The notes: generated by a model not told the origin, from the letters alone. A stretch of 64,000 nt of DNA from Naegleria gruberi (GCA_000004985.1 GG738877.1); one strand, 5' to 3'; numbered from the stretch's first letter, positions 1 to 19,595 are shown. Numbers and translations: made by a program.

Positions 1-3000
1 GGCATCCAGTGACAAGAAGCGTATGCTTTGTCCTGCCAAGACACTTGAATTTGGTAACTATTTGGGCTACTCTGGAACTGCTAAGAGAAGTAATCTTAAA
101 AAGACTGCTCTACAAAGCTTTGAAAGAGAAAACAGACCATTGCGTTTGTTCTTTATTCCTGAAATTGTTGAATATGTAGCCATGATAGATAGAGTTCTCT
201 GTAAAGATGGAAATTCTTTACTACTCGTAACCAAACAAGGCATTGGTAGTAGTGATATGGTTGCCCTCGTTTGTCACCTTCTCAAGTTTGAGCTATTCAT
301 TCCAAAGATGGTTGTTGGCTACTCTAGCAAGCATTTCAAGAATGATGTTAAAGCTGTTATTCAAAAAGCTGCACAAAACGAAAAAGTTTGTCTTATCCTT
401 GAAGACCACCACATGACTGACGTTTCACTTTTGGAATATGTTAATAGTCTTCTCAGTTCTGGTGAAATTCCAGGTCTCTTTACCAAGGAAGAATTAGAAA
501 TGATTCTCTCTTCTATCAAAGATGAAAGTTCAAGAGAAGGAAATCAAAGTATGAGTCCTAATGCTATCTTCATCAAACGTGTAGTTAACAACATGAGAAT
601 AGTTTTATTGATGGATCCTGATAATAGTAACTTTGATATGAAATGTAGATCAAATCCTGCCATCTTTACAAAATGTTCAATCATTTGGAAGGATAATTGG
701 TCCGCAGAAGGAATTCAACAAATTCCAAAGATGATTATAGATGAAAATGACTTGAAGACCCTATCTCTTAAACCAGATGAATTCATGCAATTGTTCGTTA
801 ATATTCACGATACTTGTACTGAAAGAAAAGCAACCCCTCTCCATTTTATTAACTTTATTGATACATTCAATAAGACTTTACAAAAGAAGAGATCTGTTAA
901 GCAAGAACAACAAGAGCACTTGAACAAGGGTTTATCAAAGTTGAAGGAAGCATCTAAGAGTGTTGATGAATTGTCTAAGAAAGCTGAAGTACAAAAAATA
1001 CAACTCAATGAAAAGCAAGAACAAAAGAAGATTGCCCTTACAGAAATTCAAAAGAGTATGCAAGAATCAGTCAAGGAACAAAATGATATTGAAAAGCTAA
1101 AGGAGCAAGTCAAGGTAGAAGATGTCAAGCTCAACGAAAAGAAGAGTTTCATCAATGGAAAACTTTCAAGTATTGAACCTCTTTTGGAGAGTGCCAAACA
1201 AGCTGTCGGTGCATTAACACCAAAAGAAATATCTGAAATTAAGAGTTTACAACAACCTCCAATTATTATCAGACAAATTTTGGAAGGTGTAGTTAGATTG
1301 ATGGGACAAAAGGATTGGAATTCTTGGAAGGGTATCCAAAACTTCTTGAATCGTATGGGTGTTAAGGATCAAATTATGAACTTTGATGCATCAACTGTAG
1401 ATAAAAAGGTACTTGATGATATCAAGAAATATCTTGCCGGTGAAGGTGCAGAATCATTCCAACCTGAAGTTGCTGCCAGAAGTAGCAAGTCAGCTTTACC
1501 TCTCGCAAAATGGGTTACTGCCAACGTTGAATATGCTGAAGTCCTCCAACAAGTTGGTCCACTTAAAAGAGAAATGGAAATTTTACTTAAATCTCAAGAA
1601 GTATTGAACAATCAATTGGCTCAATGCGAGAGTAAACTTAATACCCTCAATGAGAAGGTCAAATCTTTGCAAGATGAATACGAACAAAAGACACAAGAAG
1701 CTGAATCCCTCAAGTTTGGACTCCAACAAGCCGAAAAGACACTTTCATCAGCTAAGAGTTTGATTGGAAAACTTGGAGGTGAAAAAGAAAGATGGGAACA
1801 ACAACTTGATGCATTGGCAAAAGAAATGAAAGATATGCCATACCAAGCATTATTAGCTTCATCATTTATGACTTACCTTCCTGATGCCCCAGAAAATGTT
1901 AGAAAGGAATATATTGAAAAATGGAAGATTATTGCTAATATGAAGTCATTTGACTTCCGTTCATTCATGAGTACTGAAAGTGAAATGCTCCAATACAAAG
2001 GTGAAGGACTTCCTGGTGATGAACTTTCAACAGAAAATGCTATTGTTATTTTAGAAAGTATTAAGCATCCACTTATCATTGATCCATCCAGAAGAGCTGT
2101 TGAATGGTTAAAGACTCACTTGATGAATAAGAGCGTAGAATGTACAACTTCCCATGATACCAAGTTTAGTACAACTTTAGAATTGGCAGTGAGATTTGGT
2201 AAGACATTAATTGTTGAAGAAGTTGATCAAGTCGATCCAATCCTCTATCCACTTTTGAGAAATGAAATTATTGTACAAGGTACTAGAAAATCCGTAGTGG
2301 TAGGAGAAAAGACTGTTGATTACAGCGAAGATTTCAAGATTTATCTTGTAACAAGAAATCCAAATATTTCCCTTACACCTGATGCTTCTCCTCTTGTTAC
2401 TGTTGTCAACTTTACTGTAACAAAATCTGGTCTAGAAGGACAATTATTGAGTCAAACCTTACAACATGAAAACCCAGAAATCGAACAAAAGAAGAGTATG
2501 TTGTTGAAGAAGGAAGAAGAAAACAAGATTCAACTTAGTGATTTAGAAAAGCAACTCTTGAATGAATTAGCATCATCCAAAGGAAATCTACTTGAGAATG
2601 AATCTCTTATCACTAAATTGGCTGAAATTAAGAAGAAGAGTCAATCTATTGTTAGCAGTTTAGAAGAATCTAGTAAGACTATGAAGGAATTAGAAACAAA
2701 GAGAGATCAATATCGTCCATTTGCTGAAATGGGTAGCAACCTTTTCTTTATCATTTCTGATATGAAGAACATTAATAGAATGTACCAATTCAGTCTCTCT
2801 TCATTCATCAAGCTTTTCGATCAAGCTTTAACTTCAAGATTAGACAAGGCATCTGATGTTAATTTGAGAATTACCCTATTGAAACAAGAATTGAGTAAGA
2901 TTGCCTTTACCTACATTACTAGATCTTTATTCAAGGAGGATAGACTTTTATTTGGTATGCATATGGTTCGTGGTCTATTCCCATCAATGTTCAATCAACA

Positions 3001-5155: not shown

Positions 5156-5243
5156 GATTTTGTGTAAATAATAAAAAACAACATTAAATTATTTTAAATT
5201 CTTCAACTTCACCAAACCATTTCATCAAAATAATTGAAAAAAA

Positions 5244-7682
5244 ATGTTCATGCTAAGAAAGACAAAACCAACTCACAACGATAGAGGTGAGAGAATTGAT
5301 GGAGGAAGTGATGATAATCGTTTCGGAAGTAATAGAGGAGGGGGAATTTCATCATGGAAAAGTTCCAACGGAGATGATTCTTATGATAGAAATAATAGGA
5401 ACAACAACAATAGAGGAGGAGGTAGAAGATCATATAATAACAATGATAGATATGACAATAATAGACAATCATCATATAACAATGATAGATATGATAATAA
5501 TAGACAATCATATGATAAAAACAACAGATACAATAACAAACAAGATGATAGATATAATAACGATAAAAACCAAGAAGACGAAACAAATAACGAAGATGAT
5601 CTTGTCACATTCGGAACTGAACTTTCACAGTTGAATATTGCTGAAGTTTTTGATAGTGAAGGAAAGAATCAAATTAGAACTGCAAGAAGTATCTTGTCAT
5701 ATTTTAGAAGAATTGAATCTTTGATGAATAAGGATGATTTCCCAACTAACGAAGATCGTATTCAATTTATTACAAGTGTTTTCAATTATACTATTGAAAT
5801 GAAGAATTTATTTGAAGGTACTGGTGATGAACAAGAACAAAAGAAGAAGGGAAATTATGCATTAATTGTGTCTTTGAATAATCCTGTTATTGCTAAATGT
5901 CTTCAAACAATGGTACCATTAAGCTCTTCAGAGGATTTGAGAGGATTTTTGAATGCTTGTTCGAATCATTTACATATCATTAGTAATGGTAGATTTAGTT
6001 CATTCTTAATTCAAGAAGCTTTGAAATATGTTCCAGAAGTTGTTAAAGAAGAATCACATGTCGAAAATTTAATGCAAGATGATGAACTTGATTCAAAGCC
6101 AACAATGACTGATATTATAATTGAGGCCTATAACTCATCTATTGAACCAAACTTGTTCGATATGATTTTCCATAAGAATGCTTCATTTGTTGTAAGACAA
6201 TTACCACTTTGTCTTGGATATATTAAATCCAAGAAGGAACTTGGAAAAACTCTTTTGGATCTTATGGTTGACAAGGTTATTTCATCATGTCCTATTGGTG
6301 ATATTTTGAATGATAGTATTGCTCTTGGATTTTTAACATCACTTATGGAAAATGTTTCAACATTTATGCAAATGATTGGTAAAACTGATGCAAAACTTCT
6401 CTCTAAGATTATCAAATATGCTATTGAACAAACATCAGATGAAGAATTGACAATTTCTTCTGAAACAATTACCAAACTCTTATCTAGTACACAACACAGT
6501 CGTATTGTAGAATTAATTATTAGTATTGGAGATGAAGGTATTTTCTCAAATATTGTTGAAAAGATTCTTGCACCTAATGCTGAAAGCTTTGCCACAGATA
6601 AGAATAAGTGCTATACAATTGTTAATGCAATTGAAAGAGCAAATAGAGAACAATTTATTTTACTTTTCAATGCTTTGAGAGATTCTATCAAGAAGTGTTT
6701 CTCTGAGGGAATTCTCAATGTTATTACTTGTTTGGCTAAGGGTTGTTTAAAGTTCAATACTAAGGAACAAGAATTGATCCAACAATTACTCAAAGGATTG
6801 ACAAAGGATGGAGAAAAGACAAATGAACAAGCCATTGAAGAATTACTCTATTTGGAAGATAAAACTACATGCAATAGACACGGTTGCAATTTATTATCAA
6901 CACTTTTCACATTCCAATCCAAGAAAATGTTGAATCCACTTTTGAATATTTTCAAAGAAATGGACGAAGAAAAACTCTTTACATTGTGTACCACAAAGGA
7001 AACTAGTATGGTAATTGATTCACTTGTTCAAATGAGTGATGAGTTTATCCAAAAGATCAAACCAAAGCTTGTAGATTTATCTGTAAATGTTTATGGTGCA
7101 TTCGTTGTGGAAAAGGCCATGCTTGAATGCAAAGACAGTAAATTGCACATGGAAATTGCAACAATTTTGAAAGACGCAGAAACAAAGATTAGATCTAGTA
7201 AGCCAGGTTCTGTCCTTTGGAATAAGACCAACTTGTCACAATTCAAGAGTAATCCAAATGATTGGTTACAAAGAAAGGAAGAACAAAGAAGTAAAAAGAA
7301 GAAGAATGCCAAGATGATTCAAGAAATGGCAAATGTAAATATTGCCAACAGTTCCTCAAAGAAAAAGAAGCCAAAGAAGGAAAGACCACAAAAGAAAGAA
7401 CAAGCTCCATCTACCACTGAAAATATCGAGAAAACAGAAGCTGTATCTACAATTGAAACTGCTGAACCTGTAAAGAAGGAAAAGAAACAGAAAGAAAAAC
7501 CAACAGAAGAGAAAACTGAAAAGAAAGAAAGTAAGAAGAAATCTAATGAGGATCTCAGTCTAGACTTTTTGGAAGTAATTGATGAACCAAAGAAAGATAA
7601 GAAGAGAAAGAAGGAATCAGTTGACATGTTAGATTTTGTTGATAACATTTTAGAGTCAAGTCTCAAAAAGAAGAAAAAGTAA
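5244..7682 (+). CDS. 812-aa protein. N-terminus is N/R/D/Y-rich low complexity (RGG-like), followed by a long alpha-helical repeat region (Puf/ARM-like), and a lysine-rich C-terminal tail typical of nucleolar proteins (possible NOP9/Puf-A-like). Product assignment is tentative.
   Basis: Continuous ORF starting at ATG 5244. Contains a coding tandem repeat (NNDRYDNNRQS). The C-terminus has KKKK/KEKK runs. No introns apparent. Stop at 7680-7682. Confidence 0.5.
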   Translation: MFMLRKTKPTHNDRGERIDGGSDDNRFGSNRGGGISSWKSSNGDDSYDRNNRNNNNRGGGRRSYNNNDRYDNNRQSSYNNDRYDNNRQSYDKNNRYNNKQDDRYNNDKNQEDETNNEDDLVTFGTELSQLNIAEVFDSEGKNQIRTARSILSYFRRIESLMNKDDFPTNEDRIQFITSVFNYTIEMKNLFEGTGDEQEQKKKGNYALIVSLNNPVIAKCLQTMVPLSSSEDLRGFLNACSNHLHIISNGRFSSFLIQEALKYVPEVVKEESHVENLMQDDELDSKPTMTDIIIEAYNSSIEPNLFDMIFHKNASFVVRQLPLCLGYIKSKKELGKTLLDLMVDKVISSCPIGDILNDSIALGFLTSLMENVSTFMQMIGKTDAKLLSKIIKYAIEQTSDEELTISSETITKLLSSTQHSRIVELIISIGDEGIFSNIVEKILAPNAESFATDKNKCYTIVNAIERANREQFILLFNALRDSIKKCFSEGILNVITCLAKGCLKFNTKEQELIQQLLKGLTKDGEKTNEQAIEELLYLEDKTTCNRHGCNLLSTLFTFQSKKMLNPLLNIFKEMDEEKLFTLCTTKETSMVIDSLVQMSDEFIQKIKPKLVDLSVNVYGAFVVEKAMLECKDSKLHMEIATILKDAETKIRSSKPGSVLWNKTNLSQFKSNPNDWLQRKEEQRSKKKKNAKMIQEMANVNIANSSSKKKKPKKERPQKKEQAPSTTENIEKTEAVSTIETAEPVKKEKKQKEKPTEEKTEKKESKKKSNEDLSLDFLEVIDEPKKDKKRKKESVDMLDFVDNILESSLKKKKK
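5438..5560 (+). repeat. Coding minisatellite of about 39-nt units (two near-perfect copies plus degenerate flanking copies) encoding NNDRYDNNRQS(S)Y repeats.
   Basis: Direct comparison of 5438-5476 with 5477-5513 gives about 95% identity. Similar AAYAAYGAYAGATAYGA units continue to about 5560. Confidence 0.7.
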
Positions 7683-7685
7683 ACT

Positions 7686-9179
7686 TTAATAATCGTCATA
7701 ATCTCTTTCTTGTGTTTTTTGTCTGAGTTTGACTTGATCTCTACCTTTTTGAGTATTACGTTTGGCTGTTTGAATATCTTTAACCTTGGTAAATTGCTTC
7801 TTTTTGATATCTCTCTTAACTTGTTCCTTAATGTCCTCAGCAGTAAGAGCCTTCTTCTTTCTCCTTCTTCCTGTTGCTGTTGAAACACTAGTACCAGTAA
7901 CTACTGAAGCTTGTTCATGATCACTGTCAACTTGTTCTTCTTGATTATTTTCAGTTGTTTCCTCGTTTGTTGTTGTTGATGGTTCTTCTGTTGATTCTGT
8001 TGTTTCTTCTTTTCCTTCTTCGTCCTTTTCTTTCAAAATATCATCAAACTCCTTTGCCTTGTCCTTTGTAAAACCACTAGCTTCGACACTAACATCCAAA
8101 GAAAATTCCTTTGTAATTTCAGAAAGTTTTGGATGATACCTCGAATATTCTGGATCATCCTTATCAATAACAATACCAAACTTCTTTGAAAAGAATGATG
8201 AAATACAGTCCAAATCTCTGTTAAAGTAATAATCTGCGTTTGCGTGTGATGTAGAAACCATTTGAGGGAAGTCAATTACGATAACCTTTTCACTCTTTGG
8301 TTTAACCAACAAGTTAAATTCGTTAAAGTCACCATGTACTAAACCATATTGAGCTAATTTAACAAGCAAATCTACACATTGTTGATAAACATACAATGGA
8401 TGTTTCATCTCTCTAATTTGATACAAAGGATAACCCTTAATATGTTCCATAAGAACACAATGTCTATTGCAGTCAATTGGTTTTGGTACAGGAATACATC
8501 CAGTATCATAAATAGCTTTCATAAAAGCAAATTCCTTTAAAGCACTCAATCTACTCATATATAACCAGTTAGTAGGCTTACTTCTCTTTCCTAAATAATC
8601 TCTTGTATTCTTAACAGCTCTGAATGATGATCTACCTAATCTGTGGAATTTAATAACAATTTGTTTTGCTTTATGTTCCAAATCATATCCAGCAAATCCA
8701 TCCTCTTCAAATTCAAAAGCTTCCTCATCTTCATCACTTTCTTCTTCCAAGAATTTTTCTTCCTTATCAAGAACAACTTTAACTTCATCTTCATCTTCTT
8801 CATCAACATCCTTTTCAACTTCTTCTCCTTCCTTTACAGGTGAAAGCAACAAGTAAATATCAGATTCTTTACCAACACCAATTTGTCTTCCGAATCCAAC
8901 AACATGTCCTCTTTTCATAAATGTTTTTAATGATAAAAAGTCATAACCTGGATACGTTAAATGATAACCATCATAATTCTTGGCATCGTGATGAACAAGC
9001 CTATATTTTAATAATAAAGATAATACTTTTTGTGTACCTCCGTGTCTGAGTCCTGCAATTCTCTCAATCAATGGTGTTGGTACTAATTCGTGATTTTTCA
9101 TACCCATTTCAATGGCTGTTAGCACACGGAAATCATCATTGGAGAGGTATCTAAATTTATTAGAATCTATTTTAACCAT
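7686..9179 (-). CDS. rio2: RIO2 atypical serine protein kinase (ribosome 40S maturation). N-terminal winged-helix domain plus RIO domain, with an acidic insert and a K/E-rich C-terminus.
   Basis: N-terminus MVKIDSNKFRYLSNDDFRVLTAIEMGMKNHELVPT matches the RIO2 winged-helix domain. Kinase core contains FGRQIGVGKESDIY and LVHGDFNEFN. The true ATG is at 9179; the track start at 9203 is TTG. Intronless. Confidence 0.85.
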   Translation of the reverse strand: MVKIDSNKFRYLSNDDFRVLTAIEMGMKNHELVPTPLIERIAGLRHGGTQKVLSLLLKYRLVHHDAKNYDGYHLTYPGYDFLSLKTFMKRGHVVGFGRQIGVGKESDIYLLLSPVKEGEEVEKDVDEEDEDEVKVVLDKEEKFLEEESDEDEEAFEFEEDGFAGYDLEHKAKQIVIKFHRLGRSSFRAVKNTRDYLGKRSKPTNWLYMSRLSALKEFAFMKAIYDTGCIPVPKPIDCNRHCVLMEHIKGYPLYQIREMKHPLYVYQQCVDLLVKLAQYGLVHGDFNEFNLLVKPKSEKVIVIDFPQMVSTSHANADYYFNRDLDCISSFFSKKFGIVIDKDDPEYSRYHPKLSEITKEFSLDVSVEASGFTKDKAKEFDDILKEKDEEGKEETTESTEEPSTTTNEETTENNQEEQVDSDHEQASVVTGTSVSTATGRRRKKKALTAEDIKEQVKRDIKKKQFTKVKDIQTAKRNTQKGRDQVKLRQKTQERDYDDY

Positions 9180-9240
9180 TTTTTTAAAAACAATCACCAA
9201 CAACCAACATTCAAATAATTATTGAATTATTTTTATTAAC

Positions 9241-9256
9241 ATGATATTAATATCAT
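9241..9256. promoter_or_regulatory. Perfect 16-bp palindrome ATGATATTAATATCAT in the short divergent spacer upstream of rio2.
   Basis: The sequence is its own reverse complement. It lies 62 bp upstream of the rio2 ATG. A regulatory function is inferred from position only. Confidence 0.25.
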
Positions 9257-9618
9257 CACCATCAAACTAGTTTGATGCCATCATCGCATGCACCATGGAG
9301 CATAATTTCAATAGAGGTGCATAGAGTGGCACATTGTCAGTAAATGCATTTTGAAATTGATTTTTATTTACACTAGTTCCGATAGAGTTTGTCTTTTGAA
9401 TTCCTTCCTTCGGTAATAAGAAGATTATTGCTTTGGTTTACTTTCCTCTAAATCAATCTTGATCTTTTTCACTTCTTTACTTCTCGAATATTGAACAGAG
9501 AGTGCAAAACCAACAATAGCAACACCCCAAACACCAGCTTGATATTTCCAATTCATTCCTTGTATTTTTTTTGATTGAATTAATTCGTCATATTGAAAGC
9601 ACCTGTCCCTATTAGAAT

Positions 9619-12574
9619 TCAATCATAAAAGTCATTCAATTTCACCTTCTTACTTCCAAAGTTTGGTGGAATAGATTTGTTTGGAGGAGATGAAGAGCTT
9701 TGGAGGTCATCTAGTGAAAAATCAATAATGATATCATCATCTTCTAAATCGTTTGGAGTATTTGAGGAGGAGGCCCATTTTGGTGGTGGAACATCTGAAA
9801 ATATGAGAGACGGTAAGCTATCGATTCTTCTTGTGGAGCTTACTTCATTATTGGTTGACAATTTCAAAATCTTATCCAAATCCATATGCCCATTTGTTTT
9901 GAAAGCATCCTTGCTCTTTTCTTTCATTTCACTTCTGTATTTGGTGATATCAAAGTTATCTGTTTCAGTATACCTCTTAGTATTACTCATACCAGAGGAG
10001 GATGTAGTTTGATAATGATCTGGAGTATTATCAACAGCAGAATAATCAGCAATTGGCTCGTAAATATCCTCTCCTCCAAGAGGCACAAAATCGTCCTCTA
10101 CTATTTCAATTTCCTCTTCAATATTAACTATTTGCTGAGTTTCTTCCTCCTCTTGTTCATCCTTATCAGATAACACAACTTCCTCATCCTCATCGTCACT
10201 GTCTATTATTCTCCTCTTTTTAAGTTTTAATCCCTGAATCTTTGGTGATTGGACAATTATCTTTTCTCTGACAACTTGAGGAATAATTTGATTAGGAACC
10301 ATTCTCATATTTTTCTCAAAGAACTATCATGTTAACACGAGAATACTAGTAATTATTACAAACCTTCACGTCATTATGATATGGTATTTCCTTCAATGCA
10401 TCAATAAGAACTTTTTTCTGCTTAATGGATTCTTCATAAGCATGTCGTTCTCTACCCTCAGAAAGAAGAGCAACAATGTTACCTTTTCTCTTTCTACCAG
10501 TTCTACCAACTCTCTGAATGAGTCTTGTTGGACTTGAAGCAGAATCATCTATAAAATGTCAAACTCTATTTCAATAGAAAACTTACATAAAACAATCAAA
10601 TCAATTTCTCCAATATCTAAACCCTCTTCACCGATTGGTGTTGATACCAGTACGTTAAAAATACCATCTCTAAAATCGTGAATAATAGATTTTTGCTTCT
10701 TTTGGTTAAATCCTTTCTGGGCCCTTCCTTTGCCTTGTCCAATAAATGGAGAAACTTTCAGAATTTCATGTTTTGAAAGAATTTCCACAATAATATCGAC
10801 AGTTTTTCGGAAAAGTGCAAATACCACTACTTTAGTTTCTTGAGATGCTTTTTGGAAATGTTCCAATATGACTTGTTCCATTTTTTTGAGTTTAGGATGC
10901 ACATATCCCTGACTAATAATCTTCTCACATGCTTGAAGGATGGTTTTGAAAATTGGTTGTTTGATTATTTGATTTCTACTAAGAAGGTATTGTTTCTTCT
11001 TTTTGTCTGTTGTTTCAGTTGTTATATTTTGCAGCGAATCAACAAATAGGGTCATATCTTGGGTGTGTAAATAAAACAGACCTGTATACAGAGCTATCAA
11101 TACTCTATCATATTTAAGAAAAATATTCATGTTGATAACTTACTGAAAATCACCCATATATTTGTAAGCATCCTTTTTTTTACTCTTTAAAAATTCTGGA
11201 AATTCATTAGAGAAGGAAAAGAGTTGAATACTTACTTGTCATAGCTACGTGTAATGCATTCTTAGATAAAGAAGATGGGTCACAATTATAAACTGCACCA
11301 GCTTGAATCAATCTTTCCACAAATGGTCCCACTAATTTATAGAACAAATCTATAAAGATAATTTGAATCTAAATTATGAAATAATTCATTAAAACCTACT
11401 ATCTATTATCACAGAATCTCTATCACGATTACAAATTATCGTCTTAGTTTCTTTTTCATGTAAATATTCTGCTACATCCTTGTCTGATTCATCTCTAACC
11501 TCTACATGAGAAATTCTCAAATTTGTTATCACCTTTTGAATATCGGCATGAGTTTTTCCTGGAGTGGCTGACAATCCCAATACTCTCCAATGATCATTCT
11601 TCTTTCCAATTAATTTTGTAACCACACAATAAGCATGATTACCACTTGCCTTGTGAGCTTCATCAAAAACTACAAGAACTACTTGTCTTGCTGGACAAGA
11701 TCCTGTTTCTAAATCCTTCTCCACACACTCTGGAGTACAAAAGAATACTCGTTTAGTTTTCCACAAATCTACACGCTCGTCAGGAGAAATTCTACCAGTC
11801 AATACAACTGTTTCCTCTTCTGGAATACCCATAATATTGTAACAAGCATTCATTTGCTGATCTACTAGTGATATTGTCTGAAAATTATTGTAAAAAATCA
11901 ATGTAATCTGATTGAATACCTACATGAGCCAAGAAGATAATCTTACCAATTGGAAACCATCTATAATAATTGTACATTACAACACTGGCAATGAATGTTT
12001 TACCTAAAAGTGTCACACTAATGTTCCTAATTCAATACTTACCCAAACCTGTTGGTAAACATACGAGTGTATTAGTTAGAAGAACCTTCTCACAAATTTT
12101 GAACTGATACTTTCTCTCTGTATAGTTGGTTGGATAAATCCAAGTTTTTGCTGCTTCCAAATCAATTTGAGGAAAGCTTTTAGTATTATATTTCAATTCT
12201 TTTAGCTTTTCTTTCTTTTCATTCTCATGTTTTTCCAAAATCAATTCCAATTCATCATCATCAAGATTAATATCATCAATATTAATTCCTACAGTCGAAG
12301 TTGATTGTTTACTTGGAAAGTGATCGGAAATTGTTGTTTGTACATTGGTGATTCCTTTAGAGAGTACAGGTCTTAAATTCAGTGATCTATGATACAATCT
12401 CAAACCGATCGAGTCCTTCGATGATGAAGACTGATTATTTTGATTTCCACTGTTGTTACTATTTACATTATTACTGTCTCCAGAATTAATTGCATCCTGA
12501 TTATTTGAGGAAGCACTTGTCGTTTTCAATAATAACGATCGTTTGTTATTATTACTGTTCGACTTGGAAGACAT
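9619..12574 (-). CDS. FANCM/Mph1/Hef-like superfamily-2 DEAH helicase. Multi-exon gene with at least 6 exons. The N/S-rich N-terminus is followed by helicase motifs I-VI and an acidic C-terminal extension.
   Basis: Motif [10 protein letters not shown] is split by an intron at about 12036. Motif [14 protein letters not shown] and motif [11 protein letters not shown] sit in the exon at 11389-11901. The helicase-C region contains [22 protein letters not shown] and [18 protein letters not shown] in exons at 10380-11130. C-terminal exon is 9619-10308. Introns of 39-95 nt have GTAAGT/GTAGGT donors. Interior exon boundaries are approximate. Confidence 0.7.
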
Positions 12575-12835
12575 TTTTTCTTTGGAGTGAACAACTCTAG
12601 TTTTCTCTGGAATTGTTCAACTAGGAAAAAAACTCTCGAGACTAAAATTCATTCTCTTTAATTTGCACAATATGAATGCATTCAATAAGTACTAGTAATT
12701 TATGAAATTATAATATTAAATAGTTTTCTTTCTTCTCTTGCCTCCTTTCCAAAACCGGTCCGTATATTTTTGTAAAGTTGCTCTACTCTCAAATTTTTTG
12801 TTGAAAATAAAAATACCTCGAATCTAAGCCTTCAA

Positions 12836-14166
12836 ATGCCAGCTGAAAACGTTGAAACTGTTTTGGAACAAACTGTTGATGAAACCATCGACAACCCAGA
12901 CGTCATCAAGAAGTACAAACTTGCTGCCGAAATTGCTAATGGTATGTTCTTATCGTTGGATTAAAGCTAAAAAGAAAATATTTTGCGAATTTTACATTTC
13001 GCGACGTTGCTTTAATATTCTTATTTGATGGAATTTTGTATGATGATAACAAAATAATAATATATTTACATTCTATGATGATAATATAATGGATAATATA
13101 ATGGTATTGATATAACAATAATTATGAATATTTATGAACAATAGAAACCATGAAGCATATTCAAGGTTTGATGAAGCCTGGTGTCAAGGTTATCGAATTG
13201 TGTTCTGCTGGTGATTCTTTCATGGAAGAAAAGATTAAACATGCTTATAAGAAGTCCAAGGGCATGAAGAAGGGTATTGCTTTCCCAACTTGCGTTAACG
13301 TTAACGAAACTATTTGCCACTTCACTCCACTCGACAATACACCAGAAGCTGCTATCACATTGAAGGAAAATGATGTTGTTAGAGTTGATTTGGGTGTTCA
13401 AATTGATGGATTCATCTCCAACATTGCTCAAACTTATATTTTGACTCCAAACGTCGTCTCCGGTAGAGAAGCTGACTGTCTTGCTGCTGTTCAACAAGGT
13501 ATGGAAGTTGCTCAACGTTTGATGAAGCCAGGAAAGACCAACACTGACCTCATTCAAGCCCTCCAAAAGGTTGCTCGTGCTTTCAATGTTAAATGGGTTA
13601 ACGGTGTTTTGTCACACGAAATTAAGAGAGATGTTGTTGACGGAAAGAATGTTATTTTGTTGCACGAAGATGCTGACCAAACTGTTGACGAATTCAAGTT
13701 TGAATCTAACCAAGTTTTCTGTTTGGATTTGGTTGCTTCAACTGGTGATGAAGCTAAGTTGCGTGAAGGTACTTCTAGAACTACTGTCTACAAGAGAGAA
13801 CCATCCGTTCTTGTTGATTTGAAGGTTAACGCTTCTCGTAAGGTTTATGAAGAAATCAAGGATAAATTCGGTGCTGTTCCATTCACTGTTAAGCACTTAG
13901 ATCCTAAGTTGGGCAGAATGGGAGTTTTGGAATTGTTGAACAATAGAATGATTGATCCATACCCAGTTTTGGTTGCCAAGAAGGGTGAATTTGTTGCTCA
14001 ACAAAAGTCAACAATCCTCATTGCTAAGAAGCAAGTCCAAAAGATTACTGGTTTGCCAGTCCAATCATTCCAATCTGAAAAGAGTATTCAAGATGAACAA
14101 GTTCTTGCTGTTTTGAAGACTGATTTGAAGATTGTTCCAGAAGCCAAGATGGACGAAACTGATTAA
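12836..14166 (+). CDS. Proliferation-associated protein 2G4 / EBP1-like (peptidase M24 'pita-bread' fold, non-catalytic methionine-aminopeptidase homologue). Two exons.
   Basis: Exon 1 is 12836-12941 (MPAENVETVLEQTVDETIDNPDVIKKYKLAAEIANG). A 203-nt intron at 12942-13144 runs GTATGT...AATAG. Exon 2 is 13145-14166. The GIAFPTCVNVNETICHFTPL and DGFISNIAQTYIL blocks match the EBP1/MetAP fold. Confidence 0.8.
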
Positions 14167-14202
14167 ATTTCTTTATAAAATAAAAAAAAACTTAATTAAA
14201 TT

Positions 14203-15358
14203 TTATGTCATTTTCTGGAGATACTGAACTTTCCTTAACAACTTTACAGCCCAATCTATTACAGAGTGAATATTATCCACAACTGATTCCATATCTTCCT
14301 CAGTAACAATATCTTGTGTGGGCGAAAGCATTGATTGAGGCATTTGATACAGTACAATTAAATTACAATTCATCTCCACTTGCACAATCTTTACCACCGT
14401 TGCAGTGGAGAGAACAATTTCCATTGATCTTGGTTTGTCATTAACAGCATTCACTAATGAATAGTAAGTCTCACATTAAAAAGAATTGTTAAAATACTTA
14501 CTGATATCAGTTGCATTAGACATTAAGAAATGAGAATATGCTTGAAGGTCCAAATTCTGACTTGTTGAACAAAGGACATCCTTATCTTTGCTTATCAAAT
14601 CTGCACTTATTATTCCTGTTTCATTTCTCACTAATTTGTCGATTATTTTTGAATTCTGTTGTACTAAACTTACATTCATTCAATATTGAGTGAACAATTG
14701 ATAAAAAGGTTTCTCGTAATTTGACTTGAAAAACATAAGGATCGACTCGTAATTGGAATGGTTCTTCACTCTTAATCTCTTCTTCTGACACCATTCCATT
14801 AAATCGTATTCTTGGGTAGAGAGTAATTTCTTTTCCATTCTTATTTGAGAGTGAGGGAAAAACTCTCTGTCCTGTAAAGTAGCTTGATGGTTCCATTCGT
14901 GAATATCCAAACGAATCATGAGTTTGATAATTGGGCAGTGTATTTTGTGTTAATACATCTGATTTTGTTCCTATTTGATTTTGAATTTTTCTTTCTCCTG
15001 GAATTGGTATGTTCGATGTTTGATAGAGAGTTTGCTGCGTGGATTGTTGAAGTTTGGTAGATTCCTCAATATATTTCTGAAGAGTTTGTGTTGCTATGAG
15101 TTTGGGAAATTCATTTCCAACATCAGAATCTGTAATCACAGCACAGAACAATCTTCTAGAACCATCATTTACTATTGTTAAAGCTACTCGTTGCATTTCA
15201 AAATATTCCATTGTATGAAAAAGTTCTCGTTTTCCTTTCACTAAGACGGCAGTGAGAAGGGAGGCCAACATGTTTGAGCTATTACCGACTGGGGTCATAA
15301 ATTGTTTTTCAAACAATTTTACACCCGATTCTGTGGCAATAATAAGATTATGTATCAT
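14203..15358 (-). CDS. About 380-aa protein with an N-terminal longin/roadblock-like fold (possibly a Mon1/Ccz1/HPS-type tri-longin protein or a SNARE-like adaptor subunit). Three exons.
   Basis: Exon 1 is 15358-14674 (ATG at 15358). Intron 14673-14631 is 43 nt with a GTAAGT donor. Exon 2 is 14630-14502. Intron 14501-14454 is 48 nt. Exon 3 is 14453-14203. Splicing joins three separate track ORFs in phase. The N-terminus MIHNLIIATESGVKLFEKQF has a longin-like pattern. Function is uncertain. Confidence 0.5.
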
Positions 15359-15623
15359 AGTAAAATGTGATGAAGAGGTGTGAATAATGATGATGAACAG
15401 ATAAATAATTGTGATCTTGCAAGCCTTAATAAAATTTCAAACTATTTGTCCAATTCCTGATGATTGTTGTTCGAAAGAAATTCTACTATTGTTTTTAAAT
15501 ATTTAGCCAACTTATTCCTGATCCAATTCTCTATTCTCTTTTGTTGTTCTTTTTCAACTTAAATACAATGATGAGGAAGTACAAGTCTATTTTTGAAATT
15601 TTTTTTATTTAAAAAATTAAAAA

Positions 15624-16430
15624 ATGAAAAGATTGACTAGTGCTGCTCTCCAAGTCTCCAAATCATCAAAAGTTGCCAGTTTGGCTTCGATTAGATCCGG
15701 ATTGAGAATTAATTCTTCATCATCTTTAAATAATATTAATCATCAAAATGTTTTTGTTCAAATGTGTAATTTAAATTGTAAATCATCACAACAATTTTTC
15801 CATACCCAACCAATCAAAATGGAAATGGACAAGAGTACTATGGATGGATCAAGAGATATGCACGGAACAACAGTTTTGTGTGTTCGTAAAGCTGGAAAGG
15901 TCTGCATTCAAGCTGACGGACAAGTTACTCTTGGCCATGTTGTCATGAAGGGAAATGCTCGTAAATTGAGACAAATTGGTTCCGATGTTATTGCTGGATT
16001 TGCTGGTTCAACAGCTGATGCCATCACTCTTTTTGAAAGATTGGAAGCTAAACTTGAAGAATATCCAGGACAATTAATGAGAGCATGTGTTGAAATGGCC
16101 AAATTATGGAGAACTGATAAATATTTGAGGAAATTAGAAGCTGTCATGATTGTTGCCGATAAGAATATTACTCTTATTCTTACAGGTAATGGTGACGTTC
16201 TTGAACCAAATGAAGGTGGAGCTAATGATAGTGTTGTTGGTATCGGAAGTGGAGGTCATTATGCTATTTCAGCTGCCAAAGCTCTTTTGGATGTAAATGG
16301 ATTTGATGCTGAACAAATTGCTCAAAAGGCCATGCTTATTGCTGGTGAAATTTGTATCTATACTAACACCAATTTCACAAGATTAACCTTGGAAGAAAAG
16401 GATGGAAAAGTTGAAATTACTGAGAAATAA
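15624..16430 (+). CDS. hslV: ATP-dependent protease subunit HslV (ClpQ), mitochondrial precursor. It has an approximately 70-aa N-terminal presequence before the catalytic Thr.
   Basis: Mature part [34 protein letters not shown]...[15 protein letters not shown] aligns along its whole length to bacterial HslV. The N-terminal extension [28 protein letters not shown] is basic and hydroxylated, like a mitochondrial targeting peptide. Intronless. Confidence 0.9.
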
Positions 16431-16482
16431 ACCTTGTAAATTAAATCATGATGAGGAGGATGGACAAAGATTAAATAAAAAA

Positions 16483-16966
16483 ATGCCTATTGACGTAATT
16501 GTTGATTCTCCTGCTGAATTTGATGCCACTGTTCAAGATCAATTGAACAATAATCCAGGTGCTTTGGTTTATGTTTATGTCACCGGAAAGAAAGATGCCA
16601 CTACACAAAAGAGTTGGTGTCCAGATTGTGTTGTTTCAGTATGTTGTTTTTAAATAATTTTCAATCGATTATTAAACATGATCATAGGAACCAATCATTT
16701 ATGAAGATTTTATTCCTGAAGTAGAAAGAGAAGCTTCAAAGAAAGGTGTTAAAGTAATTGTAATCAAGGCTCTCGTTGAAAGATCAGAATACAAGGGAAA
16801 TCCAAGCTATCCATACAGAACACATGCTGATTTGCGTGTGAAAGGAATTCCAACTTTCATTTTGTGGAATGCAAAGGATGAACAAAAGGGAAGAATTGAT
16901 AACTTTGAGGATTTGGATTTACTTGATGCTTTGCGTGTACTTTCAGTCAAGATTGTCAAACAATAA
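16483..16966 (+). CDS. Thioredoxin domain-containing protein 17 (TXNDC17/TRP14)-like thioredoxin. Two exons.
   Basis: Exon 1 is 16483-16638 and contains the KSWCPDCV active-site motif. A 49-nt phase-0 intron at 16639-16687 runs GTATGT...ATCATAG. Exon 2 is 16688-16966. The spliced protein matches TXNDC17 end to end. The track start at 16402 is spurious because it overlaps the hslV tail. Confidence 0.8.
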
Positions 16967-17013
16967 TAATCTGATTTAACTTTTTACAAAATAATTTTAA
17001 TATTCACAATTAT

Positions 17014-19386
17014 TTAATGTTGAGTTTGGCCTCTAGGTGTTGAAAATCTTGGTGTAAGCTTGAGTTGGTCAAAATCTATACTACTTGAGAGAGATTTGCT
17101 GTCAATTGACTTATTCAAAACATCTTTTGCTGTTTCTATTGAATCAGGATTCACTCTCTTCAATAGATATTTACTTCTTTCTAAAAGAGTTCTCTGAAGT
17201 TGTTTCTTTTCGGCCAATTCTTGCTTTCCCTTTTCAATCATTTCAACCTTCTTGTTCTTTTCCTCAATAACAGCTAATGCTTGGAGCTTTTTGAATTCTT
17301 CAACCCTCTTTGTTCTTTCAATTACTTCTGCCTTGTCCATATCTTTTAATCTTTGTTCTTCAGCCTTTCTTTGAGATTCTCTTCTAGCTTTCTCCAAAAG
17401 TTCCTTTCTAATTTGCTCTTCTTTTTGTTGTCTTGTTAAAATCTTTTCAACTTTCTTTTCAGTTTCTTCCTTATTCTTTTGAATAACTTCTAGTCTGTGG
17501 AATTCTCTGTTTTGTTCTTCTATTTTCTTTCTTTGGGTGAGCGTATTCTTTTCATTCTCAAATTTCTTTAATTGGTCTTCTGTCATCATGATTTTTTCAT
17601 TTATCTTATTCAGCTTTTCTTGTTCATTCAATTGTCCTCTTTGTTGTGCTTCTTTAACCTTTTTTTCTTTGCTCATAGCCCTTTGTTTAGTTTGGAGGAG
17701 AATTTTGCTCTTTTGGGTCTCAAATTCTTTCATTCTCTTTTCAAATTGTTCTTGTCTTTCAAGGAGAGATTGCTCTTTCAGTTTTTGATTCTGCTCATCT
17801 CTCATTTGGGTTTGTTTAATCTTATCATCCTTCTTTAACTTTAGCATATCAGTTTTACTCTTGGCATCCCTTAACCTAGCTTCAACTTGTTGTTGTCTTT
17901 TTTCATCTTTTTGATCAACAGATCTTTGCTTTTCAAGTTCTATTAATTTTCTTTCATTTCGTAATCTTTCCAATTCTTGTTGTCTTTCTAGTATGCTTTG
18001 ATCTCTCTTTCTGTTAGCTTCCATTTGTCTTTCCACTCTTTTTTGTCTTTCCTTTTCAATTCTTTCTTCTCTTTCTTTGAGTCTATTTTCTCTTTCTGCC
18101 AGTTTACGTTTTGAATCTATTTCATATTGTACTAAATGTTCAATATAGGTTCTGTTATGTTTGAATTGACTCTCTACCTTATTTTGTTCTTCTATCAGAA
18201 CTCTGTAAGAGTCTTCCATCCTTTCTTCTTCAAAATCAAATACACCTGAAATATCTTCATCCTCTATAATGATCTTTTGTCTTTCTTCCCTGACCATCAT
18301 GAGTTTTTCTTTTCTTCTGGTTTCATAGTGGGCCCATCTCATTTTACCAACCTCTTCAGAGACACCTTTGGTGAATTCTGATTCTGGTTTTTTCAAGAGT
18401 TCTAATGGGGTTATTCCTGTTCTCAAACATGCTTCAATACTTCTAGGAGATGTTAATAAAATTGGTTCTTTTGATTCCTCATCAAAACTTTCCAAACTTA
18501 TTACAGTCTTCCCATTATAACTCATTCCCATAGATTCTAGGGTTCTTTTCACTTCCAAAAAATCAGACATGCTTGCAAATGCTCCAGTTGCACCCTTAGT
18601 TGGAGGAGTAAACATTTTTGAAATTCTTTCTCTTGATTGAGATCTTCTTTTCGAATTCATTGCTCCAGGTCCTGTAGAAAGAGGATGTTTAGGAGAGAGA
18701 AGATTCAAGGACTGTCTTGTTGGAGTTTTTGGAGTTTTCTTTGGTTCATCAAATGTTGGACTGGCAGTAAAGTTTCTTTCAATTCTTTCCTTTTTGTCGA
18801 TAATTGGCTTGTCTGTGGAGTGAATTGGTTTAGATTTTTTAATCTCTTGACTATGGGAAACAGATGGTTGATTGATAGGATATTTTTCGTATCTTTGAAT
18901 AGGTGTTGAAGCTTTTGGTGATCGATTAGGAGGAAGTGAAAGCTTTGGGACAAATGAAGGAACCTTATATTGAGAGTTACCAAATGATGGACTCTCCCTT
19001 CTAATACTGTTTGTTGTTTGGGGGTGTGTTCGAGAAGGTGATGGCAGTCCCACCTTAATCAATGTTTTCGGTTTTTGTATTGCTAGTTTATCATGATAAA
19101 AATCCGAGCTGGAGTTTGCTCTAGGAGTAGATACATCATCAGCACTGAAATCATTACAATCATCCTCATAACTAGAAGTTTGATATTCTTCTTCTGTCTT
19201 TGATGATTCCTTAGTAGAGTTTTCCTCAAAAGATGATGATTGTTGATACTCCATAGTTGAATCCTCAGTTTCTTCTAGCATTGTTGCTGGTTCTTCTTGC
19301 TCACTATAATTATTGATTTCATGTTGAGGCTGAGAGTCTTCCGATGGTTCTTCACCATGGAAAGTCTTTGGCTCAGGTTGTTCCAT
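17014..19386 (-). CDS. About 790-aa coiled-coil protein. The N-terminus is acidic and S/T/P-rich. A conserved globular segment (SIEACLRTGITPLELL...MRWAHYETRRKEK) is followed by about 400 aa of E/K/R/Q-rich heptad coiled coil.
   Basis: Single long ORF. The first ATG is at 19386 (track start 19392 is TTG). Strong charged heptad periodicity. No confident family assignment. Confidence 0.6.
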   Translation of the reverse strand: MEQPEPKTFHGEEPSEDSQPQHEINNYSEQEEPATMLEETEDSTMEYQQSSSFEENSTKESSKTEEEYQTSSYEDDCNDFSADDVSTPRANSSSDFYHDKLAIQKPKTLIKVGLPSPSRTHPQTTNSIRRESPSFGNSQYKVPSFVPKLSLPPNRSPKASTPIQRYEKYPINQPSVSHSQEIKKSKPIHSTDKPIIDKKERIERNFTASPTFDEPKKTPKTPTRQSLNLLSPKHPLSTGPGAMNSKRRSQSRERISKMFTPPTKGATGAFASMSDFLEVKRTLESMGMSYNGKTVISLESFDEESKEPILLTSPRSIEACLRTGITPLELLKKPESEFTKGVSEEVGKMRWAHYETRRKEKLMMVREERQKIIIEDEDISGVFDFEEERMEDSYRVLIEEQNKVESQFKHNRTYIEHLVQYEIDSKRKLAERENRLKEREERIEKERQKRVERQMEANRKRDQSILERQQELERLRNERKLIELEKQRSVDQKDEKRQQQVEARLRDAKSKTDMLKLKKDDKIKQTQMRDEQNQKLKEQSLLERQEQFEKRMKEFETQKSKILLQTKQRAMSKEKKVKEAQQRGQLNEQEKLNKINEKIMMTEDQLKKFENEKNTLTQRKKIEEQNREFHRLEVIQKNKEETEKKVEKILTRQQKEEQIRKELLEKARRESQRKAEEQRLKDMDKAEVIERTKRVEEFKKLQALAVIEEKNKKVEMIEKGKQELAEKKQLQRTLLERSKYLLKRVNPDSIETAKDVLNKSIDSKSLSSSIDFDQLKLTPRFSTPRGQTQH

Positions 19387-19595
19387 TTTCAATTTTTTTA
19401 AATCTTCAGTTGGTTTTTTGGAGCGGATTCAAGTTTTACAATTCAGAGAAGGTCAAAAGGAAGATAAAAAACGAACCACAAATGTTTTCTTTTTTTTTAA
19501 AATTTTTTTCTAACGGGTGACCACTTTGATGCCACATCAACTACTGATGATTAACACTGTGAATGGTTGCTACTGACGATTGCGAAATGAATCAC

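What the first reader, a model, noticed from the sequence alone, without database searches (positions are those of the whole stretch)
15624..16430. Mitochondrial-targeted HslV threonine protease encoded in the nuclear genome
Nuclear-encoded HslV with an N-terminal presequence is a patchily distributed eukaryotic trait. It is known in kinetoplastids, apicomplexans, amoebozoa and several other protists, and is absent from animals, fungi and plants. It points to a mitochondrial HslVU machine and is also a strong taxonomic marker for this contig. The partner HslU ATPase is not in this window.
Basis: partly seen in the sequence, partly recalled or inferred. Interest (0 to 1): 0.5.

Follow-up and report, generated by a model that had tools for sequence, protein, structure and literature searches.

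The report
Naegleria gruberi mitochondrial HslV protease gene
This is the ordinary nuclear gene of the amoeba Naegleria gruberi for HslV, the proteolytic half of a bacterial-type mitochondrial protease already known from many protists; the only new point is that the reference annotation probably merges it wrongly with the next gene.

Summary
Window 15624..16430 (+) is an intact 268-codon ORF. Residues 82-268 are a full HslV domain: they score above both NCBIfam HslV equivalog cut-offs, are about 58-60% identical to E. coli HslV, and the predicted fold matches T. brucei HslV at TM 0.92. Thr1, Thr2, Asp17, Lys28, Lys33, Gly45 and Ser124 are all conserved, and dN/dS is 0.03-0.05.

The 81-residue N-terminal extension has two parts. 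Residues 1-70 are basic, rich in Ser/Thr/Asn/Gln, almost free of acidic residues, fast-evolving and predicted disordered, as expected of a mitochondrial presequence. Residues 71-81 ([11 protein letters not shown]) are identical in four Naegleria sequences and end in the HG|TT junction also found in alphaproteobacterial HslVs.

The window is nuclear N. gruberi DNA. No HslU lies in it, but N. gruberi HslU (XP_002673356.1) sits on another contig and was detected by mass spectrometry in purified mitochondria.

Nothing here is novel: HslVU is well known in protist mitochondria, and the gene is already in the databases. There it is NAEGRDRAFT_69289, a 414-aa model that splices out the HslV stop codon and fuses it to a TXNDC17-like thioredoxin. 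Orthologue evidence suggests that fusion is an annotation artefact.

The parts
15624..16430 (+). Complete HslV (ClpQ) coding sequence, 268 codons plus TAA, with no intron
   Evidence: ORF. NCBIfam HslV equivalogs above cut-off. Orthologues of 276, 274 and about 265 aa end at the homologous stop.
15624..15833 (+). Residues 1-70: presumed mitochondrial targeting part of the presequence (MKR..., basic, rich in Ser/Thr/Asn/Gln)
   Evidence: 9 K+R and 2 D/E, both acidic residues at the very end, with 40% S+T+N+Q. Only 17-23 residues are identical between species, yet the frame is open in all three sequenced loci (chance by base composition 0.0046 per 70 codons). pLDDT below 50..
15834..15866 (+). 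Residues 71-81: conserved pro-segment [11 protein letters not shown], ending in Gly-1 before the catalytic Thr
   Evidence: Identical in N. gruberi, N. fowleri, N. lovaniensis and a third Naegleria-like sequence; the three DNA sequences compared differ only by 1-3 synonymous changes. HG precedes TT in 111 of 119 homologues, alphaproteobacteria included.
15867..16427 (+). Residues 82-268: mature HslV Ntn-hydrolase domain. Thr1 = T82 (15867-15869), Thr2 = T83, Asp17 = D98, Lys28 = K109, Lys33 = K114 (15963-15965), Gly45 = G125, Ser124 = S209 within GSGG
   Evidence: Alignments and E. coli numbering map. AlphaFold pLDDT about 90. Foldseek best match 4hnz_A (T. brucei HslV), TM 0.92, rmsd 1.6 A. 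dN/dS 0.029-0.049.
16218..16232 (+). Five-residue insertion GANDS (residues 199-203; GSNDS in N. lovaniensis) in the loop before GSGG, specific to Naegleria
   Evidence: Present in the Naegleria sequences and absent from the other eukaryotic and bacterial HslVs aligned.
16410..16458 (+). The 49-nt stretch that reference model NAEGRDRAFT_69289 treats as an intron. It holds the last six HslV codons (VEITEK), the stop codon and 28 nt of spacer; most likely not an intron
   Evidence: Exon reconstruction of the 414-aa model. Tail and stop are conserved in the orthologues with mostly synonymous differences. The 5' end is GTTGAA, against GTATGT in the real intron at 16639-16687.

Best explanation
This is the N. 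gruberi nuclear gene for the proteolytic subunit (HslV/ClpQ, peptidase family T1B) of the mitochondrial HslVU protease.

Proposed mechanism, with each step marked:
- The 268-residue precursor is made in the cytosol and imported into the mitochondrial matrix through its basic, acid-free N-terminal 60-70 residues (inferred from sequence properties and from experiments in T. brucei).
- The presequence is removed, and the conserved pro-segment [11 protein letters not shown] is cut at Gly81|Thr82. The cut is most likely autocatalytic, as in proteasome beta subunits, and exposes Thr82 as the N-terminal nucleophile (inferred).
- The mature 187-residue subunits assemble into a double hexameric ring (inferred from family membership).
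- HslU, encoded on another contig as XP_002673356.1, is a mitochondrial protein by mass spectrometry (shown in the literature). Its C-terminal ...KKFIL tails dock in pockets between HslV subunits that include the conserved Lys28. HslU unfolds substrates with ATP and feeds them to the Thr1/Lys33 active sites (inferred from the bacterial, trypanosome and Plasmodium systems).

The gene descends from the alphaproteobacterial ancestor of mitochondria rather than from a recent transfer.
For: - Family: NCBIfam HslV equivalogs at 254 and 244 bits, above their cut-offs. PDB HslV chains match at E 1e-47 to 1e-56, with Thr82 = Thr1. The predicted fold matches T. brucei HslV at TM 0.92.
- Active site and HslU-contact residues are invariant: T82, T83, D98, K109, K114, G125, S209.
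- Purifying selection: dN/dS 0.03-0.05.
- Nuclear and native: eukaryotic neighbours; a neighbouring ORF 100% identical to an N. gruberi protein; GC3 equal to neighbours; gene order helicase / M24 peptidase / unknown / HslV shared with N. fowleri.
- Presequence. N. gruberi HslU has the same kind of N-terminus, with its first acidic residue at 46.
- Partner: N. gruberi HslU scores 540.6 bits on TIGR00390, has Walker A/B motifs and the ...KKFIL tail, and has orthologues in N. fowleri, Willaertia, Acrasis and Andalucia. It was detected in purified N. gruberi mitochondria (PMC8134430, supplement 4).
- Precedents: in TbHslV, T20, T21 and K53 are needed for activity, and deleting the targeting signal leaves the protein in the cytosol (PMC2277460). 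In Plasmodium, pro-PfClpQ of 22 kDa and mature PfClpQ of 18 kDa are both seen (PMC3223699).
- Ancestry: the best bacterial hits are alphaproteobacteria (Parvibaculum and others) at 64-71% identity, against 58-60% for E. coli. They share the [W/M]-H-G|T-T junction.
Against: - No localisation, processing or activity data exist for this protein itself.
- Neither its peptides nor its accession occur in the held part of the published N. gruberi mitochondrial proteome table. That file was cut when stored, so this is uninformative.
- No MPP-type arginine motif sits at the Gly81|Thr82 junction (the nearest Arg is at -5), so the cleavage route is uncertain.
- To my recollection, Bacillus CodW keeps a short N-terminal extension and uses an N-terminal Ser, so removal of a pro-segment is not universal in the family.
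- The reference annotation gives a different product, a 414-aa fusion.
- At 81 residues, the extension is long for a presequence.
Confidence: 0.88

Rival explanations
1. The reference gene model is right. N. gruberi splices out 16410-16458 and makes a 414-residue HslV-thioredoxin (TXNDC17-like) fusion protein, always or as an alternative isoform.
For: NAEGRDRAFT_69289 / XP_002675554.1 is annotated this way. The removed stretch has GT...AG ends and is 49 nt, the same length as the genuine intron 16639-16687. Only 52 nt separate the HslV stop from the next ATG.
Against: The six codons and the stop inside the supposed intron are conserved in N. fowleri, N. lovaniensis and a third species, with mostly synonymous differences. 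Those species have no TXNDC17-like gene downstream of HslV. The thioredoxin part is complete from its own Met, matching PF06110 profile positions 7-101 of 119. The 5' end GTTGAA departs from the GTRAGT-type consensus (established knowledge) and from the neighbouring GTATGT. The 414-aa product is not found on any independent contig.
Confidence: 0.07
2. Translation starts at an internal Met (Met73 or Met79). This would give a short-pro-segment HslV like the alphaproteobacterial ones, not imported into mitochondria.
For: A metagenome gene caller chose exactly this start for the closest relative (P0002, [11 protein letters not shown]...). Alphaproteobacterial HslVs begin 9-17 residues before Thr1.
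Against: The upstream 68-78 codons are open in three species, begin with a shared MKR and have a stop just upstream; the chance of an open frame is 0.0046 per 70 codons. They keep presequence composition despite sequence divergence. The partner HslU is mitochondrial. A eukaryotic ribosome normally uses the first AUG (established knowledge).
Confidence: 0.03
3. It is a bacterial contaminant, a recent horizontal transfer, or a decaying or repurposed non-catalytic copy.
For: The mature domain is 64-71% identical to alphaproteobacterial HslVs.
Against: The gene is embedded in 64 kb of eukaryotic genes, some with introns. Its GC3 is the same as its neighbours. It is syntenic with N. fowleri. It has a eukaryote-type N-terminal extension. 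There is no excess of bacterial promoter or terminator signals. The ORF is intact, all catalytic residues are present and dN/dS is 0.03-0.05. Other heteroloboseans, jakobids and oomycetes carry orthologues.
Confidence: 0.02

Closest known systems
Trypanosoma brucei mitochondrial HslV (TbHslV; PDB 4hnz/4ho7) with TbHslU1/U2
   Same: Both are nuclear-encoded with an N-terminal targeting extension directly followed by Thr-Thr, and both have Lys33. The fold is the same: it is the best Foldseek match, TM 0.92 at 52% identity. Both belong to Discoba.
   Different: The T. brucei extension is only 19 residues, against 81 here with a conserved 11-residue pro-segment. T. brucei has two HslU paralogues; only one N. 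gruberi HslU appeared among the best 120 hits. The kDNA-replication role is specific to kinetoplastids. Pocket residues differ: I/F/E here at E. coli positions 54/57/114, against I/M/T in T. brucei.
Naegleria fowleri FDP41_008960 and N. lovaniensis C9374_003329 (named HslV by UniRef)
   Same: These are direct orthologues. The mature domain is 94% identical (N. fowleri). The pro-segment, the Naegleria-specific insertion position (GANDS; GSNDS in N. lovaniensis), the C-terminal tail and the upstream gene order are shared.
   Different: The targeting part has diverged (23 of about 70 residues identical, with indels) and the downstream neighbour differs.
Alphaproteobacterial HslV (for example Parvibaculum)
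   Same: 64-71% identity, the same [W/M]-H-G|T-T junction before the nucleophile, and the same active site.
   Different: The bacterial proteins have only a 9-17-residue N-terminal pro-segment and no targeting sequence, and they lack the five-residue insertion. In the E. coli locus fetched here hslV is directly followed by hslU; in N. gruberi the two genes are on different contigs.
20S proteasome beta subunits
   Same: Both have the Ntn-hydrolase fold with a Thr1/Lys33 mechanism, and both have Gly-1 before Thr1, which in beta subunits marks autocatalytic propeptide removal.
   Different: This protein is not a member: it scores 31.7 bits on the archaeal beta model (cut-off 224) and 22.3 bits on the bacterial one (cut-off 191.9). 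Foldseek matches are at E about 1e-10 with TM about 0.7. HslV rings are six-fold, not seven-fold (established knowledge).

Membership tests
HslV / ClpQ (peptidase T1B) | Scores above the curated cut-off of the HslV equivalog models | tested here: met
   NF003964 254 bits (cut-off 137); TIGR03692 244.1 bits (cut-off 157.75).
HslV / ClpQ (peptidase T1B) | Catalytic Thr1 (plus Thr2), Lys33, Asp17, Gly45 and Ser124 in the GSGG loop | tested here: met
   T82, T83, K114, D98, G125 and S209 are invariant in alignments A1 and A2 and map to the E. coli numbering.
HslV / ClpQ (peptidase T1B) | Thr1 is exposed as the free N-terminus of the mature protein | not testable with these tools
   This requires removal of 81 residues. 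Gly-1 and a conserved pro-segment are consistent with it. Pro and mature forms are seen in Plasmodium. There are no data for this protein.
HslV / ClpQ (peptidase T1B) | Ntn-hydrolase alpha-beta-beta-alpha fold closest to solved HslV structures | tested here: met
   AlphaFold model with pLDDT about 90 over residues 82-268. The top 23 Foldseek PDB hits are all HslV/ClpQ entries (TM 0.86-0.94); proteasome subunits follow.
HslV / ClpQ (peptidase T1B) | Double hexameric ring; ATP- and HslU-dependent peptidase activity | not testable with these tools
HslVU two-component protease | A cognate HslU AAA+ ATPase with a C-terminal docking tail in the same genome | tested here: met
   N. gruberi P0241 / XP_002673356.1 scores 540.6 bits on TIGR00390 (cut-off 362.45). 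It has Walker A GPTGVGKT, Walker B IVFIDEIDK and the C-terminus DLKKFIL. It lies on a different contig from the window. HslV Lys28 (K109), which I recall contacting the tail carboxylate, is conserved.
Nuclear-encoded mitochondrial matrix protein | The gene lies in nuclear DNA | tested here: met
   Neighbouring nuclear genes, spliceosomal introns and 100% identity to an N. gruberi nuclear contig protein.
Nuclear-encoded mitochondrial matrix protein | An N-terminal presequence: positively charged, poor in acidic residues, hydroxylated, poorly conserved in sequence | tested here: met
   This was a heuristic composition test only; TargetP and MitoFates were not available. The amphipathic moment is moderate (muH 0.36).
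Nuclear-encoded mitochondrial matrix protein | Experimental presence in mitochondria | tested here: inconclusive
   HslU is in the N. gruberi mitochondrial proteome. HslV peptides and its accession were not found in the held, truncated table.
20S proteasome beta subunit | Scores above the cut-off of the beta-subunit models | tested here: not met
   31.7 bits against a cut-off of 224, and 22.3 bits against 191.9.

The most novel reading that the evidence does not exclude
The annotated 414-residue product is real, at least as an isoform. N. gruberi would then splice the HslV reading frame onto the adjacent TXNDC17-like thioredoxin domain, giving a mitochondrial Thr-protease subunit with a redox-active CxxC module on its C-terminus, an architecture not described for any HslV. 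A milder novel reading is that the [W/M]-H-G|T-T junction shared by alphaproteobacteria and mitochondria marks proteasome-like autocatalytic maturation of HslV.
Probability: 0.07. Interest if true: 0.45.

Novelty: already known. Interest (0 to 1): 0.14.

Why it matters
Little is at stake scientifically. Mitochondrial HslVU has been documented in kinetoplastids, apicomplexans, amoebozoans, jakobids, diplonemids and others, and the Naegleria orthologues are already named HslV in UniRef and listed in a published N. fowleri peptidase table.

The practical value is curatorial.
- The N. gruberi reference entry ('predicted protein', 414 aa) is probably a merge of HslV with a thioredoxin-like gene.
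- That would hide the HslV identity from name-based surveys, and proteomic searches would use a wrong C-terminus.
- HslVU is absent from humans and has been proposed as a drug target in trypanosomatids and Plasmodium. The orthologue in the pathogen N. fowleri could be considered in the same light.

Tried and rejected
1. I first concluded that the gene was missing from the N. gruberi annotation. No N. gruberi hit appeared, and six start variants were absent from the collection. One search showed this was wrong: the N. gruberi model is a non-representative member of a 90% cluster. The lesson is that representatives can hide members.
2. Exact-product look-ups for six window proteins and for P0121 and P0363 all failed. 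The gene-position index evidently does not hold the N. gruberi assembly, so these negatives say nothing.
3. Searching supplements for HslV peptides or the accession in the N. gruberi mitochondrial proteome found nothing, but the file was truncated. The Andalucia supplements had no HslU or HslV text.
4. The bacterial promoter/terminator scan and the Rfam scan around the gene found nothing above background. Neither is relevant to a eukaryotic gene.
5. No MPP arginine motif (R-2, R-3 or R-10) could be placed consistently in the three species, so I did not assign an MPP cleavage site.
6. No formal phylogeny was built. The domain is short and the best hits are saturated with near-identical alphaproteobacteria, so the ancestry statement rests on hit ranking and on the literature.

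Full report
**1. Observation**

The window has an uninterrupted ATG-to-TAA ORF of 268 codons at exactly 15624..16430 on the + strand.
- It scores 254 bits on NCBIfam NF003964 (cut-off 137) and 244 bits on TIGR03692 (cut-off 157.75), the two HslV equivalog models. The proteasome beta-subunit models stay far below their cut-offs.
- Pfam sees the Proteasome domain over residues 80-252.
- Against solved structures, the best matches are bacterial and trypanosome HslV chains (E 1e-47 to 4e-56). Every alignment starts with query Thr82 on the mature Thr1.
- E. coli HslV, taken from the K-12 record, matches 15867..16367 at 58% identity.

**2. Whose gene, and is it nuclear?**

The other long ORFs of the window encode dynein heavy chain, a NOP9-like PUF protein, RIO2 kinase, an M24 peptidase, DNA polymerase delta, a Sir2-family protein, sestrin and a D-2-hydroxyglutarate-dehydrogenase-like flavoprotein.
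- The last of these is 100% identical to N. gruberi NAEGRDRAFT_69307, so the window is N. gruberi nuclear DNA.
- Composition is uniform at about 33% GC. The HslV gene has GC3 of 0.22, within the 0.21-0.28 range of its neighbours.
- In N. fowleri the order helicase / M24 peptidase / unknown gene / HslV is the same; the downstream side differs.

Contamination and recent transfer are excluded.

**3. Anatomy of the protein**

*Mature domain (residues 82-268).* Two alignments, of 12 and 26 HslVs from heteroloboseans, oomycetes, other protists and alphaproteobacteria (the first also including E. coli), show these residues as invariant: T82, T83, D98, K109, K114, G125 and S209 in GSGG. They correspond to E. 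coli Thr1, Thr2, Asp17, Lys28, Lys33, Gly45 and Ser124.
- An AlphaFold model has pLDDT of about 90 over residues 82-268 and below 50 over residues 1-78.
- Its best PDB match is T. brucei HslV 4hnz (TM 0.92, rmsd 1.6 A). The top 23 hits are all HslV/ClpQ entries, and 20S subunits follow at E of about 1e-10.
- Between N. gruberi, N. fowleri and a third Naegleria-like sequence from two environmental assemblies, the mature domain has dN/dS of 0.029-0.049. dS is saturated at 1.3-1.7, so the ratio is approximate.
- A five-residue insertion (GANDS, residues 199-203; GSNDS in N. lovaniensis) before the GSGG loop is peculiar to Naegleria.

*Extension (residues 1-81).* It has two parts.
- Residues 1-70 hold 9 K+R and only 2 acidic residues, both at the very end, with 40% Ser/Thr/Asn/Gln. 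The first acidic residue of the protein is at position 67, the latest among all 33 long ORFs of the window. The runner-up, at position 52, is the D-2-hydroxyglutarate dehydrogenase homologue, a family that is mitochondrial elsewhere. Only 0.47% of 66-residue windows in these ORFs lack Asp/Glu.
- The corresponding parts in N. fowleri (78 residues) and the third species (68 residues) share only 17-23 identical residues, with indels. All three nevertheless start with MKR, keep the same composition and keep the frame open. In the third species a stop lies just upstream, and the gene caller had wrongly chosen an internal Met. By base composition an open 70-codon frame has probability 0.0046. Conserved properties without conserved sequence is how mitochondrial presequences behave.
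- N. gruberi HslU has the same kind of N-terminus, with its first acidic residue at position 46.
- Residues 71-81, [11 protein letters not shown], are identical in N. gruberi, N. fowleri, N. lovaniensis and the third species; the three DNA sequences compared differ only by synonymous changes. The motif ends in His-Gly directly before Thr-Thr. Of 119 homologues examined, 111 have HG at this place. These include alphaproteobacterial HslVs, which carry 9-17 residues before it, typically ...P-I-x-W-H-G|T-T.

**4. The partner**

No HslU lies in the window: tblastn gives a best E of 2.3 with E. coli HslU and 2.0 with N. gruberi HslU. N. gruberi does have one.
- The mitochondrial-fraction proteomics table of Horvathova et al. 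2021 (PMC8134430, supplement 4) lists XP_002673356.1 with 37 unique peptides and 68.1% coverage. Its best named homologue there is Cyanidioschyzon HslU.
- The full protein (P0241, 505 aa) lies on a 339-kb contig, whereas the window's genes map to a 394.7-kb contig.
- It scores 540.6 bits on the hslU equivalog TIGR00390 (cut-off 362.45).
- It has Walker A GPTGVGKT, Walker B IVFIDEIDK and the C-terminal tail DLKKFIL; E. coli has DLSRFIL.
- Orthologues exist in N. fowleri, Willaertia, Acrasis and Andalucia.

**5. Mechanism**

*Shown here:* family membership, an intact active site, a conserved HslU-contact lysine, purifying selection, nuclear location, presequence-like properties, and the existence and integrity of the partner.

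*Shown in the literature for relatives:*
- TbHslV needs T20, T21 and K53 for activity. It is mitochondrial and becomes cytosolic when the targeting signal is deleted (PMC2277460).
- Plasmodium shows pro (22 kDa) and mature (18 kDa) ClpQ, and ClpY binds through its C-terminal residues (PMC3223699).
- HslU C-terminal peptides activate Leishmania HslV through pockets between subunits (PMC6429459).

*Inferred for this protein:* import through residues 1 to about 70; removal of the presequence; a final cut at Gly81|Thr82; dodecamer assembly; ATP-dependent degradation together with HslU. I favour an autocatalytic final cut for two reasons. Gly-1/Thr1 with a conserved pro-segment is the arrangement of proteasome beta subunits. 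Alphaproteobacterial relatives have the same junction but no import machinery. No arginine motif for the matrix processing peptidase lies at the junction. This step is a hypothesis. To my recollection, Bacillus CodW is reported to keep a short extension, so processing is not universal in the family.

**6. The gene model**

I first thought the gene was unannotated, because the homologue search returned no N. gruberi protein and none of six start variants is in the collection. That was wrong. The cluster represented by P0002 contains NAEGRDRAFT_69289 / XP_002675554.1 / D2VK69, a 'predicted protein' of 414 aa.
- Its exons are 15624-16409, 16459-16638 and 16688-16963.
- Its first 'intron' (16410-16458, 49 nt, GTTGAA...GGAG) removes the last six HslV codons and the stop. 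It joins HslV to the downstream TXNDC17-type thioredoxin protein (PF06110).

Five points argue against this fusion.
- The tail and stop are conserved in the orthologues (LEITEK* in N. fowleri...LEITEK at the end of the N. lovaniensis protein, VEIRDQ* in the third species) with mostly synonymous differences.
- N. fowleri has no TXNDC17-like gene within 10 kb downstream, and the short stretches (about 140-200 nt) available downstream in the third species show none.
- The thioredoxin protein is complete from its own Met at 16483.
- The supposed 5' splice site is poor compared with the genuine GTATGT intron at 16639-16687.
- The 414-aa product is not seen on any independent contig, although this index seems to lack N. 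gruberi altogether.

I rate the fusion at about 7%. Transcript data would settle it.

**7. Comparison with what is known, and novelty**

Mitochondrial HslVU is established in kinetoplastids, Plasmodium, Acanthamoeba, jakobids and diplonemids. It is described as absent from animals, fungi and plants (PMC7050145; PMC12699882; PMC13632651).
- 'Plants' should be read as land plants. Li et al. cite 'plantae' among the carriers, and a red alga has HslU.
- N. fowleri HslV appears in a published peptidase table (PMC8296547).
- UniRef names the N. fowleri and N. lovaniensis proteins HslV.

This is therefore an already known kind of gene in an already sequenced and annotated genome. It is a well-behaved member, with a probable gene-model error as the only added value.

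**8. Verdict**

The finding is ordinary, and I score its interest at 0.14.

Noticed in passing
window 16410-16458 (and 15624-16966 as a whole): Reference model NAEGRDRAFT_69289 / XP_002675554.1 (414 aa, 'predicted protein') fuses HslV to the downstream TXNDC17-like thioredoxin gene through a 49-nt GTTGAA...AG 'intron' that removes the HslV stop codon. Orthologue evidence suggests two separate genes.
   Followed up: yes
window 16431-16482; 16402-16653; 16483-16966: Only 52 nt separate the HslV stop from the ATG (16483) of the TXNDC17-like gene (exons 16483-16638 and 16688-16963, real intron 16639-16687 GTATGT...CATAG). The thioredoxin reading frame is also open back to an ATG at 16402, inside the HslV 3' end. 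This is an unusually tight tandem arrangement, and how the two mRNAs are separated is unknown.
   Followed up: partly
window 55663-57243 (-): The D-2-hydroxyglutarate-dehydrogenase-like ORF is 526 codons, but reference protein NAEGRDRAFT_69307 has 493 residues and starts at an internal Met. The 33 extra N-terminal residues are basic and acid-free (first Asp/Glu at position 52), so the reference model may have cut off part of a mitochondrial presequence.
   Followed up: partly
L004 227-1024 and L005 6-803 (ENA ERZ27315067; Logan SRR636569): A third Naegleria-like HslV (mature domain 90% identical to the window's) sits on short environmental contigs. Its gene was called from an internal Met (P0002, 196 aa). 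The real ORF extends 69 codons upstream to an MKR... start.
   Followed up: yes
homologues P0004-P0120: Alphaproteobacterial HslVs carry a conserved 9-17-residue N-terminal pro-segment ending ...W-H-G before Thr-Thr, and mitochondrial HslVs keep M/W-H-G at the same place. This suggests an inherited, possibly autocatalytic, maturation site. I found no experimental report on it in the papers read.
   Followed up: partly
window 16218-16232: There is a five-residue insertion (GANDS; GSNDS in N. lovaniensis) in the loop preceding the GSGG active-site loop. It is shared by the Naegleria sequences and absent from all other HslVs aligned. Its structural consequence is unknown.
   Followed up: no
L002 1-20831 versus window 1-19400: Synteny with N. 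fowleri holds upstream of HslV (helicase, M24 peptidase, unknown gene) but breaks downstream: a weak PEPCK-family gene there, TXNDC17-like and a 790-aa coiled-coil-like ORF here. NOP9 and RIO2 lie between the dynein gene and the helicase gene only in N. gruberi.
   Followed up: partly
P0241 and one search hit list: Only one N. gruberi HslU appeared among the best 120 hits, whereas trypanosomatids have two HslU paralogues and Diplonema has three (PMC4106860 abstract; PMC12699882). Whether Naegleria has a second, more divergent HslU was not resolved.
   Followed up: no
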